Program-made: the position numbers
Shown here: positions 25,655-43,460 of the stretch, piece after piece
How the letters are laid out: each line of letters starts with the position of its first letter
Position numbering within the stretch: the stretch's first letter is position 1
Origin: Octopus vulgaris
Taxonomy: Eukaryota
Reading direction: 5' to 3'
NCBI GenBank assembly: GCA_951406725.2
Contig: OX597819.1
Span: 117,862,001 to 117,926,000 of the forward strand
Length of the DNA stretch: 64,000 nt

Positions 25655-28183
25655 ATAGATAGATAGATATGTATATCTATGTATATATATATATATATGT
25701 ATGTATGTATATATATATATATACCGGTGTAAACACATAAATGTGAAACAAGGTGGAAAAAAGTGTACTCAAAAACTGTCCGATGAACGGCAACGCGAAA
25801 CTCAGAGTAACAGGTTTTGTTGAATTTTCTGCTGCTTTAAGTAAAGTATATATATATTCGAGAGTGGTCTGAAAATTTCCTCCATTTAAGTATATCGCGA
25901 AATGCCTATTTGGAGTCCAAATGTTCAAAATTTTTTATTGGGCCGTGAGGTCCTAGAGAACCACTGTAATAACCTGAGAAAGGAAACGCTAAATAACATC
26001 ACTTTTAACTGACCCTTGTTAATTTTCGTTTACCGAAATGCAAGAAACTTTTCAGCATCCCTTCGTATATCTTTTCACAAAAATCTTGATGCAAAGTCGT
26101 GTTTTGAAGCAGATATTGTTACATTCATGGATGGCCACATTTAAAAAAAATTAAACAAAGCCACTATGTATCTGTGTGTGTGTGTATGTGCAATTTGGGT
26201 ATAGCACACGTTAAGTAAGTTAAATGATCTGAAAAGTGTGTTGAAATATAAATACATTGAAGTGGTTCGTGCTTTATTTACGAATACGTATCAAAAACGA
26301 CTTATCAACGCTCACATGTGAACCGGTCAGAGATACAGCTCGACTTCATCAATCAGAAACGGATTTAATGAGCAATCCTTAAATAATTCTTAATTATCTT
26401 GTTTTTCTTCTATCTTGTTGAATTTATGAATATTGAAATCACTTCTGTTTATGATGACTGAATTTGGACTTTGATATCGGTCATCCAACAGTCCTGTGAC
26501 ATATATTTCCAGTTTTCAGCCCTTTATCTGGTTATAATTTAGAATATCTTACATACTATAGTGCATAATTCTCTTTCCTCTTCTTGTTTCTGTATTTGAA
26601 GGCTAATTCTGCGTTTCTGCTTATTGCGTTCACTATGTAAAGACATGGTTTTGTAGAAATTTTATCGTAAAATGTTCATGCACAAAATGCTTGCAATGCC
26701 TAACTTTGCGGATTCAGTTTATTGCATATAATTCGCAAAAGCTTTCATTAATGAAGAAATGTTAGGACAACGAGCCTCGTCTCTGTTAGGTGTTGCATTA
26801 ATACACATTATACTACGATAAATGGATTGTTATTTTACGATATACTCTCATTGTCAGTCATATTGTGTATATGGTTTAAATATAAGTATTTAATAGTAAG
26901 TTCGCTTAGTTTGCACAAGCATTATCTTCTTCCAACACAGAGAGAACGAGACAACATATCGTTGAGCTCATTTCAACAGATTATGAATTATGTAACACAA
27001 ATTGATATATGCAAAAGTCGAAATGTTTTACTCATCCACTTTACCGATACTGTGAATTAAAAAAAAACACTGATTCTTTTACAGAAGCGTATAATAAGAT
27101 TCACCGGAACAAAGATAATTTCGCTGAACAATACTGGCGAAGAAAATAAAATCATTTCGATATCCAAACAGTAACAATAACATCTCAATTTCCATTTTCA
27201 TATGGCATACGAAAAATAAATTCGATCATTTCCATTTCAAATTTAAAAGCTGTAATTTGTATTGAAAGCAAATATATTGCAAACACGATTCAAGGGAAAT
27301 CTCTAAAACTTTTACATTCATATGTATTCATTCTAAATAGTCTTCCATGGTTAATTGTTTCGTGCTTCCATAAAATGATTCATAAAGCCAATATTTCCAT
27401 CGTACTGCATATCAGGAATCTTTCTTTATCATTTCTAAAAAATGAGATAAGCGCAAGCACACAGACACACACATACACAAACACACAAATACATTTACTC
27501 ACATACACAATCTCACACTCACACTCACACATAAGCACACGTATACATGTATATATAATTTTGAACAATACACGCACATACCACTTAAATACAGTTATCC
27601 GTAATATCTCTATATATCAGCACAATCACATCTCAGTTTTTGTCTATACTTTCTCATTTAAGGTGTAGATCTGTTTCCCCTTTGGGACTATTCCGTAAGT
27701 GATTTTTATGTGTGCTTCTTCCTACATTTATTTGTATTTCTGGAGACTAATATTTCGACGTATTCACAATATTATAAGTATAAATTCTACTGAGGATTTA
27801 TATTTGCATTATATTGAATGTATTTTATTTTATTTACGCTTATACACAAATATTTATGGGTGTGAGCGTGTCTGTGTACGTGGCAACCTTGTTATATATT
27901 AATAGACACGATATATTAGGTGATTGTGTATTAGCGTCTACAATATAATACATATGATTAATCTTCTGTGCATATATATCCGTTCATCTGGTTCTAAATA
28001 ATACTTTCAGAATAAGCACAAACATTATCAGAATACATGCAAATATACATATAACCTCAAAATATGTAGAAAACATTATCTTTATTGTAGATCTCACCTT
28101 ATAAAGCCGACAATTCTTTTTATTGCATTAACACATATACAAACACGCACACACTCGTATAAGTATATATATATATATATATA

Positions 28184-28256
<73 letters not shown>

Positions 28257-41100: not shown

Positions 41101-43460
41101 AACTGACTACAACAACGAAGATGAATTACTGGTTAAAAACTGAAGCAATTATGTTCCACCTAAGGATAGGAGAACACGGTAGATGACTTCTGCGATCATT
41201 TCCGTAGTTTGCCACAAAGTTTCCATAAGGAAAAAAAATTAATCCAAGCCCCAAGAATGGGAAAATTTAACTAACAATTAAAGAAGCAGACAAAAGAAGT
41301 GCTCCATTTCTGATGGAAACAGATAACTACAAAAACCTTGTATTATCCATGCAAGAAAATTATAACTTCTCTGAAAAAAATTATAGACTATAAACAACAA
41401 AGAACAATGAAAAATCTAGCAGTATTAATTTATCTACATGAACGGCCTGACAGAAAATGAAATAAATTATATCACGAAATTTAAAAGTAAGCCTCGTCTT
41501 TGTTACGGCCTAACCGAAAGGTAACAATGTATTTTTATGAATATTAGAGAAATAGTAGTAACCGGCTTAATACTTGATTGATATTACAGACAATTAAAAC
41601 TGTATCATCAGTGTATTCAGTTTGTATCTGAACAATTTACAGTCGATTTAGCATCGGGTTCGTAATAATTTTTGTACTTATTTTTAAGCTTTCCTTGTAT
41701 TCGTATTCGTTTTTTATTTGTATTCCTTTCTGGAATTTTCCGACACACTGGAGCCATTGGATTTGATGTCATTAATGTTTCGTTTAAACTGGACCTAGAA
41801 AACGCTTGCTGGAAATGTGAACTGGGAAAAATCCGGAGAGACTATCTTCTAAGGACAAAGAATTGCTTAAAATTGATTGTGTTGTGTCGAAAGACTTGGA
41901 AGCAATAAGAAAGATATGAGGTGTAAAATCGAATAGATTGGGTGTGTCTGATTCACCAGGTGCATAACAGACAACAACTATGCAGAAATGGAGAATAGAG
42001 ATCCACGACTGCGATTCTATGGATCATGGAGTGAACCGTATCGTTTAGCGATTGAATATCGATTAAGAAGGTGGCATTCTTTGGAGATGATTAAACTTAT
42101 ATATGACAATAATCATTAAGATATTTGCCTATTTACACTAGGTATGCTGAGGCAAATAGTTAGTTATACATACATATTTATGTATATAAAGACTACATTT
42201 CATGGATATATATAGTGGTATTATCCGAGTTTTCATCAATGGCTGTTTTGAGATTATATTTGCTATTGCTTCAGAAGTAAATGGACCGAAGGAATTATGT
42301 TGAAAGTTCATGAATTTACCTTAAACAATATAGTGCTTCTAAGATGCAAGAGAATAGGAAGAATTTCTATTCACGTTTTCAGTGCTAGATTTAGAGGCAA
42401 AACGGTTATTCAGTGTAGAAGCAAAATCTTGGCAATAGGAATAACTACTTCAAGAACTTAATTTCGTTTTGTATCAAGAAAGTTTTTTTTAGAATTATTG
42501 CTGCGGTTTCTAAAGCTTAAATATATGTTATTTTCTACAGAAGAAGTTTCTTTATGCGATTTTACATTCTTTTGGTAATAATACGGCAAATATTCATCAT
42601 ATATTTCATTCGAAGACAAACTACAGAGTCCAAATCAGTCATCCTTCGCATCTAAAGTCTCAGTTATATACAAGCATACATATACGGATACGCATATGCA
42701 CGGTCCTAAATACGTAATACATGCATCTATAGCTATCATCTCTACCAACATCTCTCTCTCTTCCTCTCTCCCTATCTCTCTCTCTCTATCTATCTCTGTG
42801 TATAACAGTAACTCTCTGTGTCTCTGTCGCTCTCTCTCTCATTATATATGTATATGTATGTATGCATAGAAAGGTAGATAATTAAATAACGTATATATGT
42901 AGAGATCATAAGATATACATGGTACCCTAGATCTATTTACTGTGTAAGTTATATTTGTTTAATGGCTTCCACTCCAATTCTGTGAATTATCTACTTATCT
43001 GCTACGAAATATACTTAGGGTAGCATCCCTAATATTCGATTACAGCTTTTAATAAAACTGTGATTAGAAATCGCAATATAGATTGCTTTTAATTCTGCCA
43101 GTCGTAATGAAGAGCCGGATTATACAACCGCCTGAATATAATCTTTCATCAATTCCTTTTGTGAATTACATCCATATTGACTCAAAGAGCACTTGCGTCT
43201 ACCTACTTGTCGATTTCGTTTTCTACTTATCTATATCTGTAAGATTTTGAATTATATATCTATATTTTAGATAGATAATATATATATATATATATATATA
43301 AGTTCAGCAAAATTTAGATTCAGATGAATATGTTACTTAAGTCAAAGGCACCAACATTTTGTATGGTACTATGCATATAAATCAAATGGGGTGATTATAA
43401 TCAAAATAAGCAACAAGTATATCCGATTTGTTGATTATTTTGATTATATATATATATATT

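What the first reader, a model, noticed from the sequence alone, without database searches (positions are those of the whole stretch)
25723..41520. Recurrent head-to-head PLE-end palindromes, mostly ending in (TA)n: possible double-primed insertion system
Seen: apparently different PLE families show the same geometry, with two 3' ends pointing outward and fused at their truncated 5' ends, at 25723-25850, 28789-29165, 30490-34900, 34955-35092 and 36146-37135 (0.1 to 4.4 kb). In most, the outer ends abut or lie near (TA)n. Known: Penelope elements can carry inverted 5' segments, and some PLEs target microsatellites. Inference: both ends of a cut in (TA)n prime reverse transcription and the two cDNAs are joined, so palindromes are a routine product here rather than an exception. 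This could also seed MITE-like hairpins from retroelements.
Basis: partly seen in the sequence, partly recalled or inferred. Interest (0 to 1): 0.78.

Follow-up and report, generated by a model that had tools for sequence, protein, structure and literature searches.

The report
Head-to-head Penelope retroelement pairs in (TA)n
This stretch holds several broken copies of Penelope-like retrotransposons inserted into TA-repeat DNA as back-to-back mirror-image pairs, which is the layout already described for this class of elements, so it is a good example and not a new system.

Summary
Four of the five claimed palindromes are real inverted repeats: 28789-29094 (76% identity), 30534-32546 against 32887-34900 (99%), 34993-35092 (94%) and 36157-36345 against 36973-37105 (78-84%). 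The fifth, 25723-25850, is not a palindrome. It is a minus-strand tail fragment fused to a plus-strand hammerhead-like fragment. Only the 4.4 kb pair is a Penelope-like element (PLE) by strong protein evidence: reverse transcriptase, a CX4CxxC linker and a GIY-YIG nuclease. The 36 kb pair has a weak nuclease remnant. The 100-nt hairpin is tied to the 4.4 kb element by terminal similarity. The two smallest rest on motifs only. Six of ten outer ends lie within 2 nt of a perfect (TA)n array, or eight of ten if imperfect TA is counted. Head-to-head 5'-truncated copies, a one-sided 30-40 bp tail and a (TA)n bias are all published PLE traits. A PLE protein has been shown in vitro to cut and extend both DNA strands. 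In three pairs here (possibly four) the arm that is shorter inside carries extra 3' sequence that the longer arm lacks. That favours two separate initiations over self-primed fold-back, but it does not prove it. No genome-wide or allele test was possible.

The parts
25724..25778 (-). e1 left arm: a 55-nt 3' tail fragment whose outer end abuts (TA)n 25588-25723
   Evidence: Matches the tail of the single copy at 17976-18027 (score 24; 0 of 500 shuffles reach it).
25767..25846 (+). e1 right arm: a hammerhead-like segment plus 3' sequence whose outer end abuts (TA)5 25847-25857. Positions 25767-25778 can be assigned to either arm because they are helix-I-like self-complementary sequence.
   Evidence: 29 of 35 nt identical to 17944-17978 (0 of 500 shuffles). 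Its downstream part is not similar to the left arm (175 of 500). Regex hit at 25780-25801.
28789..28942 (-). e2 left arm, abutting (TA)n 28758-28786
   Evidence: Palindrome at 76% identity with no spacer. A strict hammerhead-core regex hit lies at 28835-28877 on the minus strand.
28943..29164 (+). e2 right arm (to 29094) plus a 70-nt extension of unknown origin (29095-29164) before (AT)9 29165-29182
   Evidence: The extension matches nothing else in the window.
30490..32546 (-). e3 left arm: a 5'-truncated PLE copy (profile positions 339-746) with a 44-47 nt extension at 30490-30536 that the right arm lacks; it abuts imperfect (TA)n 30463-30489
32547..34897 (+). e3 right arm: a 5'-truncated PLE copy (profile positions 226-746). 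The 340 nt at 32547-32886 are unique to it. No tail. It abuts (TA)28 34898-34954.
   Evidence: RVT_1 E 2.6e-8. Profile hit 4.3e-161. 61% identity to 750-aa homologues. An in-frame stop at 33918 and a frameshift shared with the left arm.
34955..35041 (-). e4 left arm (34993-35041) with a 38-nt extension (34955-34992) related to the e3 extension; it abuts (TA)28
   Evidence: Extension against e3 extension: score 12, reached by 2 of 500 shuffles.
35042..35092 (+). e4 right arm, without a tail, running into (AT)n 35087-35105
   Evidence: 100-nt hairpin, DNA fold -43.3 kcal/mol, z -14.8. The arm is 94% identical to the single copy at 17152-17201.
36144..36970 (-). e5 long arm: a decayed PLE 3' part with a nuclease remnant at 36720-36914; its outer end adjoins imperfect (TA)n 36115-36143
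   Evidence: Profile hits at positions 663-705 (i-E 4.9e-4) and 645-664 (i-E 1.8), which are colinear. tblastn E 0.39.
36973..37135 (+). e5 short arm, carrying the most canonical hammerhead core in the region (37089-37117). It extends at least about 16 nt beyond the point where the left arm ends. Its true 3' end was not determined.
38517..39693 (-). Sixth minus-strand PLE 3' part: hammerhead-core regex hit at 38750-38792 and a nuclease remnant at 39541-39693; its 3' end abuts (TA)8 38501-38516
   Evidence: (i-E 5.7e-3).
40937..41512 (+). Decayed PLE N-terminal part (profile positions 2-203), facing the sixth copy head-to-head. No shared origin could be shown.
   Evidence: E 2.6e-21; 7.2e-18. 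No nucleotide similarity between 38517-39540 and 39700-40936 (78 of 100 shuffles reach the score).
17145..17264 (-). Unpaired 120-nt copy of the e4 family, with (TA)n on both sides
17944..18027 (+). Unpaired copy of the e1 family; its 3' end lies 1 nt from (TA)36
55353..56803 (-). Lone decayed PLE reverse-transcriptase fragment (profile positions 118-482)

Best explanation
The region is a cluster of dead, 5'-truncated, endonuclease-bearing Penelope-like retroelements from several families, inserted into (TA)n microsatellites. Each insertion was laid down in a single event as a head-to-head pair. The most likely mechanism has four steps. (1) The element's GIY-YIG nuclease cuts both strands of the AT-rich target. 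(2) Each exposed 3' end primes reverse transcription of an element RNA, at one of two alternative internal start sites about 40 nt apart, so that one end carries a 'tail' and the other does not. (3) Both cDNAs stop short of the RNA 5' end. (4) Their 3' ends pair through a few bases of chance or palindromic homology and are filled in, which fuses the truncated 5' ends. Shown here: the geometry, the PLE identity of the large pair, the (TA)n flanks and the asymmetric ends. Shown elsewhere, in vitro: cutting and extension of both strands, and the two start sites. Inferred: that these two facts explain the genomic palindromes, and how the cDNAs are joined. My confidence that these are ordinary PLE head-to-head insertions is about 0.85. 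My confidence in the two-primer mechanism specifically is about 0.45-0.5.
For: PLE identity of e3. RVT_1 scores 34.3 bits against a cut-off of 29.6. GIY-YIG scores 21.5 bits, just under its cut-off of 22.6. 285 homologues were found at E<=0.001, of which the 120 listed are 624-803 aa, many with both domains; the named ones are from bivalves and the best identity is 64%. A profile built from 60 of them hits both arms (down to 4.3e-161). A C-x4-C-x2-C linker lies before the nuclease. Single event or common source for e3. The arms differ by 13 mismatches and 4 small indels over 2011 nt, and both need the same frame change between reverse transcriptase and nuclease. No TA remnant lies at any of the five inner junctions. 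Asymmetric ends. e3's left arm has 44-47 nt and e4's left arm 38 nt that the partner arm lacks, and the two extensions are related to each other (2 of 500 shuffles). The tail-less end of e4 coincides within about 5 nt with the end of an independent single copy at 17145, so it is a discrete start site. In e3, e4 and e5, and possibly e1 (where the two tails do not align), the arm that is shorter at the inner junction has the longer 3' end. A fold-back copy of the longer arm could not have acquired that sequence. Junctions. At e1, 11-12 nt (25767-25778) can be assigned to both arms. At e3, at most about 5-7 nt are shared. Literature. Both strands are cleaved and extended, and two RT start sites bracket the tail (PMC11167929). 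Inverted units are flanked by a single target-site duplication (PMC3846280). Control. Four copies of an unrelated ~400-nt interspersed repeat in the same window form no fused head-to-head pair.
Against: e2 and e4 have arms of equal length, to within about 0-3 nt. Self-primed fold-back predicts that. Two independent cDNAs do not, unless both ran off the same RNA 5' end. The arms of e1 are not demonstrably copies of the same sequence. The 70-nt extension of e2 and the right end of e5 are undefined because the window holds no third copy. Only e3 is a PLE by strong protein evidence: e5 and the sixth copy rest on i-E values of 5e-4 and 6e-3, and e1 and e2 rest on short motifs. Rfam found no hammerhead family. 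There were 0 matches at gathering score. None appeared among the 150 listed of 239 matches at E<=10 in the whole window; the other 89 were not shown. None appeared at E<=10 in three local searches. The strict core regex gave 10 hits against 3.9 (maximum 9) in shuffles, which is weak by itself. Arm identity can be inflated by gene conversion between palindrome arms. No empty site, one-arm allele or genome-wide count could be examined.
Confidence: 0.5

Rival explanations
1. Self-primed fold-back, the explanation published for PLE inverted junctions. One cDNA is made from one nick. Its 3' end snaps back on itself, or onto an internal patch of microhomology, and copies itself outward. That gives a palindrome whose unique centre is the loop.
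For: e4 is a 100-nt hairpin with an 8-nt loop. e2 is a palindrome with no spacer. Equal arms are what snap-back gives. The e1 junction lies in a self-complementary helix-I-like segment. Arkhipova et al. 2013 infer self-priming from palindromes at inverted junctions (PMC3846280).
Against: A copy cannot contain what its template lacks. In e3 the longer arm, which must be the first cDNA, has no tail, yet the shorter arm has 44-47 extra nt. The same logic applies to e5 and to e4. The two tails of e1 are unrelated (175 of 500 shuffles reach the score).
Confidence: 0.25
2. Two independent, sequential insertions of related elements into the same (TA)n array happened to land in opposite orientation.
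For: (TA)n is a hot target. e3 and e4 share one array (34898-34954), and a single copy and another fragment face each other across (TA)36 at 18028-18101. The arms of e1 differ in sequence. PLE nucleases are reported to cut within PLE sequence (PMC11167929).
Against: No TA remnant is left at any of five inner junctions. The e3 arms are 99% identical and share a frameshift. No tandem or tail-to-tail fused PLE pair was found in the region. In other species whole inverted units are flanked by a single duplication (PMC3846280).
Confidence: 0.1
3. The small palindromes (e2, and possibly e4) are DNA-transposon MITEs that insert at TA dinucleotides. They would not be retroelement products, or they would be copies of an already palindromic master.
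For: Both have inverted termini and TA-rich flanks. The window holds other palindromes of unknown class at 37425-37630, 3703-4043 and 46257-46552. e2 has no protein or nucleotide link to a coding PLE.
Against: The e4 arm is the terminal 50 nt of a family that also occurs as a single, non-palindromic 120-nt copy, and it shares its end and tail with the coding e3 element. One e2 arm carries a hammerhead-like core with a stem II, and both arms carry a further short hammerhead-like motif that is also seen in e1 and in the 17.9 kb copy. Neither palindrome is repeated in the window.
Confidence: 0.1

Closest known systems
Canonical insertion architecture of endonuclease-containing Penelope-like elements (Penelope/Poseidon, Neptune, Nematis, Naiad)
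   Same: High 5' truncation; an inverted 5'-truncated copy fused head-to-head; a 30-40 bp tail at one end only; a preference for AT-rich or (TA)n targets; a hammerhead-like motif near the 3' end (PMC8557442; PMC3846280).
   Different: No pseudo-LTR (partial tandem) was found here. All pairs are bare truncated arms, down to a 100-nt hairpin. Target-site duplications cannot be read within (TA)n.
Poseidon element of Anolis carolinensis (PAc), reconstituted in vitro
   Same: Both target strands are cut and extended. Two RT start sites one tail-length apart would give one tailed and one untailed end. Targets are AT-rich (PMC11167929).
   Different: It belongs to a different clade (Penelope/Poseidon, without the CxxC linker) and a different host. 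In the parts I read, that paper does not connect its result to inverted genomic copies, and joined products were not characterised. The tail lengths here are 38 and 44-47 nt.
Paired minimal hammerhead motifs on opposite strands in metazoan genomes (Cervera and de la Pena 2014)
   Same: That paper reports dual minimal hammerheads 100-700 bp apart on opposite strands. It also reports a U3-A8 core variant, a long helix II, and a short palindromic helix III (PMC4209133). The e3 motif has the U3-A8-type core, and the e3 and e4 families have a palindromic six-base helix III.
   Different: The motifs here were found by a regular expression and by eye. No covariance model supports them and cleavage is untested.
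Twin priming of human L1
   Same: The second cut strand also primes reverse transcription, and the two cDNAs are joined through microhomology.
   Different: As I recall it, L1 twin priming copies two different parts of one RNA and gives an inversion without duplication. Here both arms start at the element's 3' end and duplicate it.
MITEs (miniature inverted-repeat DNA transposons)
   Same: Short palindromic DNA in TA-rich flanks that can fold into a hairpin.
   Different: The arms are 3' ends of retroelements. There is one copy of each in the window, and no transposase relative or readable duplication.

Membership tests
Endonuclease-containing PLE, Neptune/Nematis type | PLE-type reverse transcriptase | tested here: met
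   For e3: RVT_1 at 34.3 bits against a cut-off of 29.6, and 61% identity over 335 aa to 750-aa homologues. Not met for e1, e2 and e4, which have no coding sequence.
Endonuclease-containing PLE, Neptune/Nematis type | C-terminal GIY-YIG nuclease with two cysteines inside the core | tested here: met
   The Pfam GIY-YIG score is 21.5 bits, just below its cut-off of 22.6. The homologue profile covers positions 556-746 at 9.4e-68. The cysteines and downstream histidines were seen by eye in the translation.
Endonuclease-containing PLE, Neptune/Nematis type | CX2-5CxxC linker between reverse transcriptase and nuclease | tested here: met
   C-x4-C-x2-C is present in both e3 arms. The criterion is taken from PMC8557442. 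No phylogeny was made, so Neptune and Nematis are not separated.
Endonuclease-containing PLE, Neptune/Nematis type | Pseudo-LTRs (partial tandem direct repeats) | tested here: not met
   No direct repeat involving these elements was found in 25.7-41.5 kb. This is expected if all copies are 5'-truncated.
Endonuclease-containing PLE, Neptune/Nematis type | Hammerhead ribozyme motif | tested here: inconclusive
   Regex cores with a stem II lie at 28835-28877(-), 37089-37117(+) and 38750-38792(-). A U3-A8-type variant lies at 30640-30664(-) and 34769-34793(+). Rfam gave no hammerhead hit. The published minimal PLE hammerheads were found with a separate descriptor (PMC4209133).
PLE head-to-head insertion unit | An inverted 5'-truncated copy fused at the 5' ends, with a 30-40 bp tail at one end only | tested here: met
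   Met for e3 (44-47 nt) and e4 (38 nt). e5 and e1 are asymmetric but less well defined. The e2 extension is 70 nt and of unknown origin.
PLE head-to-head insertion unit | The whole unit flanked by one target-site duplication (single event) | not testable with these tools
   Both flanks are (TA)n, so a duplication cannot be read. No empty allele was available.
MITE | Many copies of the same palindrome with terminal inverted repeats and a fixed duplication | tested here: not met
   There is one copy each of e2 and e4 in 64 kb. A genome-wide count was not possible.

The most novel reading that the evidence does not exclude
The window may hold in vivo footprints that decide between the two explanations of PLE palindromes, and that also show which RNA is copied. 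(1) In e3, e4 and e5, and perhaps e1, the arm that is shorter at the inner junction carries 3' sequence that the longer arm lacks. That fits two independent initiations at the two known start sites and does not fit self-priming. (2) In the 100-nt hairpin, the right arm begins exactly at the nucleotide after the predicted hammerhead cleavage site of its family, and the left arm begins 2 nt further in. The e1 left arm may begin at the same kind of site. This would mean that ribozyme-cleaved RNAs are copied to their 5' end in vivo, so that equal-armed hairpins arise as double run-off products. The in vitro study saw no use of cleaved RNA (PMC11167929). Both points were noticed after the fact, from very few cases.
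Probability: 0.3. Interest if true: 0.5.

Novelty: new member of a known kind. Interest (0 to 1): 0.28.

Why it matters
How Penelope-like elements integrate is still listed as an open question. Craig et al. 2021 name the tandem/inverted structures and the microsatellite bias as what an in vitro system should explain. Loci like this one are cheap natural records of integration products. Suppose the rule 'the inner-shorter arm carries the tail' and the coincidence of arm starts with ribozyme cleavage sites both hold genome-wide. They would then link the 2024 in vitro result to the genomic palindromes and give the ribozyme a role in vivo. For genome annotation, such pairs explain short hairpins next to (TA)n that could otherwise be called MITEs or microRNA precursors. 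As an example, Rfam gave weak microRNA-like scores on the e4 hairpin. As a finding in itself it is ordinary.

Tried and rejected
1. Rfam at gathering score gave 0 matches. The whole-window run at E<=10 was swamped by microRNA-family matches on (TA)n and (CA)n, and no hammerhead appeared among the 150 rows shown of 239. Three local runs over e5, 38517-39050 and e2 gave only weak snoRNA or microRNA noise.

2. A hammerhead regex alone is weak evidence. The strict form gave 10 hits against 3.9 in shuffles (maximum 9). The relaxed form gave 19 against 8.8 (maximum 18).

3. I looked for an inverted partner for the minus-strand copy at 38517-39693 in 39700-40936 and found none (78 of 100 shuffles reach the score). 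I therefore do not count a sixth pair as a single event.

4. I tested the e2 extension (29095-29164) and the e5 right flank against the other tails. Nothing convincing came out: the best result was 19 of 500 shuffles.

5. I checked whether the 400-nt repeat pair 23416-23815 / 24816-25214 was another PLE palindrome. It is an unrelated interspersed repeat. The two copies face tail-to-tail, 1 kb apart. ARAGORN found no tRNA in the window.

6. An assembly fold-back artefact for e3 was rejected. The arms differ at 13 positions plus indels, their ends are asymmetric, and both flanks are unique.

7. Two searches for a printed two-primer model of PLE palindromes found none: 'Penelope-like' with 'twin priming' gave 3 papers, none about PLE mechanism judging by title and abstract, and 'Penelope-like' with 'head-to-head' gave 3 papers.

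8. Not done: any genome-wide, allele or sister-species test. The bacterial and archaeal genome collection was not used because it is irrelevant here. I did not open the supplements of the cited papers. The supplementary figures of Frangieh et al. and supplementary figure S2 of Craig et al. may bear on tail positions and linker motifs.
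Full report
What the window is. The window is AT-rich DNA (GC 0.26-0.41 in 2-kb bins) with no N. Perfect (TA)>=5 arrays number 60 and cover 3.4% of it. The best protein relatives of its retroelement are unnamed records, and the named ones are from bivalve molluscs. I did not try to name the source.

Checking the observation. A minus-strand self-comparison of the whole window, and a more sensitive one after masking simple repeats, recover four of the five claimed palindromes.

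- e2: 28786-29097 pairs with itself at 76% (E 1.6e-58), with no spacer.
- e3: 30534-32546 pairs with 32887-34900 at 99.1% over about 2012 nt, leaving 340 unique bases in the middle.
- e4: 34993-35092 pairs with itself at 94% (E 1e-29). It folds as a 100-nt hairpin with an 8-nt loop (-43.3 kcal/mol, z -14.8).
- e5: 36157-36206 and 36266-36345 pair with 37055-37105 and 36973-37061 at 84% and 78%.

e1 (25723-25850) has no inverted match beyond (TA)5 itself. Alignment with an unpaired relative at 17944-18027 resolves it. Positions 25724-25778 on the minus strand are the last 55 nt of that family (0 of 500 shuffles reach the score). Positions 25774-25808 on the plus strand are its hammerhead-like part (29 of 35 identical; 0 of 500). 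The parts downstream of the motif in the two e1 arms do not match each other (175 of 500). So e1 has the claimed orientation but is not a palindrome, and its arms may come from different templates.

Are they Penelope-like elements?

- e3 certainly is. The right arm reads as a reverse transcriptase (RVT_1, 34.3 bits). The left arm gives an uninterrupted nuclease domain (GIY-YIG at 21.5 bits, just under Pfam's cut-off of 22.6) preceded by C-x4-C-x2-C. There are 285 relatives at E<=0.001; the 120 listed are 624-803 aa, many carrying both domains. A profile of 60 of them covers positions 226-746 of 747 in the right arm and 339-746 in the left. By the criterion quoted in Craig et al. 2021, the linker places e3 with the Neptune/Nematis type. 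Both arms are dead. They share a frame change between the two domains, the right arm has a stop at 33918, and the left has a 1-nt deletion.
- e5 contains a weak, colinear nuclease remnant on the minus strand (36720-36914; i-E 4.9e-4 and 1.8). Its left copy is therefore the long arm.
- e4 has no coding sequence. Its arm is the terminal 50 nt of a family whose end and one-sided extension resemble those of e3.
- e1 and e2 are tied to PLEs only by hammerhead-like motifs.

The motifs are not confirmed by Rfam. It gave no hammerhead at gathering score, none among the 150 rows shown of 239 at E<=10, and none in three local runs. The bare regex is only about 2.5 times commoner than in shuffles. On the other side, the motifs show traits that Cervera and de la Pena 2014 list for minimal PLE hammerheads: a U3-A8 core variant (e3), a long helix II with a G-C closing pair (e5, 38750), and a short palindromic helix III (PMC4209133, passages read). 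Those authors found their motifs with a descriptor of their own.

The profile search found three more pieces.

- A sixth minus-strand 3' part lies at 38517-39693. It has a core motif and a nuclease remnant, and its 3' end abuts (TA)8.
- It faces a decayed plus-strand N-terminal part at 40937-41512. This looks like the textbook 'inverted truncated copy upstream of a full copy'. I could show no sequence relation between the two, so I do not count it as one event.
- A lone decayed copy lies at 55353-56803.

Unpaired 3' ends also exist: 17145-17264 (with (TA)n on both sides), 17944-18027, and probably 18102-18272. The window therefore shows five fused pairs and at least four singles. Pairs are common but not the rule.

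(TA)n association. Six of ten outer ends are within 2 nt of a perfect array. Two more are joined to one by 10-13 nt of imperfect TA. One is 70 nt away and one is 126 nt away. The chance per end is about 0.4%. This is far beyond chance, even allowing that the boundaries were drawn with the arrays in view.

What is already known. I read passages of four papers.

- Craig et al. [quoted passage not shown] They report (TA)n as a preferred target of Naiads and cite a target bias hypothesised for Neptune. They call the transposition cycle 'still undefined'.
- Arkhipova et al. 2013 (PMC3846280) describe whole units with an inverted repeat flanked by one 8-10 bp duplication, and a 15-bp overlap at an inverted junction. 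They call head-to-head 'the most frequently observed' arrangement and explain it by self-priming.
- Frangieh et al. 2024 (PMC11167929, parts 1-2 of 4) show that a purified PLE protein cleaves and extends both strands of an AT-rich target. They also show that reverse transcription starts at two internal sites whose spacing equals the tail.
- Cervera and de la Pena 2014 (PMC4209133) noted paired minimal hammerheads 100-700 bp apart on opposite strands.

The two-primer idea is a natural reading of the 2024 result. I did not find it printed as a model for the palindromes.

What the window adds on mechanism. A fold-back product is a copy of the first cDNA, so its outer end cannot hold sequence that the first cDNA lacks.

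- In e3 the longer arm (right, 2351 nt), which would have to be the first cDNA, ends flush with (TA)28. The shorter arm (left, 2013 nt) carries 44-47 further bases.
- In e4 the arm that is 2 nt shorter inside carries a 38-nt extension related to that of e3 (2 of 500 shuffles). The untailed end coincides within about 5 nt with the end of the independent single copy at 17145. That marks it as a genuine start site and not a random stop.
- In e5 the short right arm runs on through the rest of the hammerhead-like motif, while the long left arm stops inside it.
- In e1 the short left arm has a tail that the right arm lacks.

This pattern, clear in three pairs and possible in a fourth (e1), fits two independent initiations. 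It is a small, post hoc sample: chance for four pairs is 1 in 16.

Against the two-primer model, e2 and e4 have arms equal to within 0-3 nt, which is what fold-back predicts. One reconciliation is that both cDNAs ran off the same defined RNA 5' end. The e4 right arm begins exactly at the base after the predicted cleavage site of its family's hammerhead-like motif, and the left arm begins 2 nt further in. This is suggestive only.

The junctions allow pairing of cDNA 3' ends. At e1, 11-12 nt (25767-25778) can be assigned to both arms. At e3, at most about 5-7 nt are shared; comparison with homologues places the right arm's start at 32542-32547.

Sequential insertion is disfavoured for four reasons. 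No TA remnant lies at any of the five inner junctions. All five are head-to-head. The e3 arms share a frameshift and are 99% identical. Four copies of an unrelated 400-nt repeat in the same window form no fused pair.

Verdict. The mechanism stays open between two initiations (about 0.5) and fold-back (about 0.25), with sequential insertion and other origins making up the rest. The tests that would decide it, a genome-wide census and allele comparisons, could not be run here.

Noticed in passing
window 14-400, 23413-23815, 24816-25214, 58014-58443 (weaker: 35661-35967, 61879-62143, 2576-2789): An interspersed repeat of about 400 nt with an internal TA/TG-rich patch and an A-rich 3' end. At least four copies are 70-84% alike. 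Its 5' part looks tRNA-like by eye, but ARAGORN found no tRNA. I used it as a control: its copies form no fused head-to-head pair.
   Followed up: partly
window 37425-37630: A 207-nt self-palindrome (79% identity, E 3e-42) lying 75 nt to the right of (TA)n 37288-37349. Its class is unknown. It could be a further retroelement hairpin with a one-sided extension, or a MITE.
   Followed up: no
window 18102-18272 and 46075-46228; 46257-46552 and 63588-63809: A repeat starts directly at the right edge of (TA)36. Its first bases resemble the reverse complement of the hammerhead-like motif of the copy on the other side of the array, so two 3' ends appear to face each other across the microsatellite. 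The second copy sits beside another weak palindrome (64% identity) that has relatives at 63.6 kb.
   Followed up: partly
window 5273-5810 and 5916-6439: A tandem duplication of about 530 nt at 89% identity with a 106-nt gap. It has no PLE protein signal and was not classified.
   Followed up: no
window 3048-3294 / 3783-4042 and 3703-4043: Further weak inverted repeats (63-68% identity) of unknown class. The adjacent repeat at 3424-3606 is 86% identical, in inverted orientation, to 55437-55621 beside the lone PLE fragment.
   Followed up: no
window 41512-41545: The decayed plus-strand PLE N-terminal fragment stops at about profile position 203-220. No continuation was found downstream. Whether this is a deletion, a later insertion or a retained intron was not examined.
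   Followed up: no
window 35014-35071 and many (TA)n/(CA)n arrays: Rfam microRNA-precursor models give sub-threshold scores on the e4 hairpin (mir-723, 35.9 bits against a gathering score of 63) and on microsatellites (mir-3149, mir-297 and others). These are composition and hairpin artefacts, not genes.
   Followed up: yes
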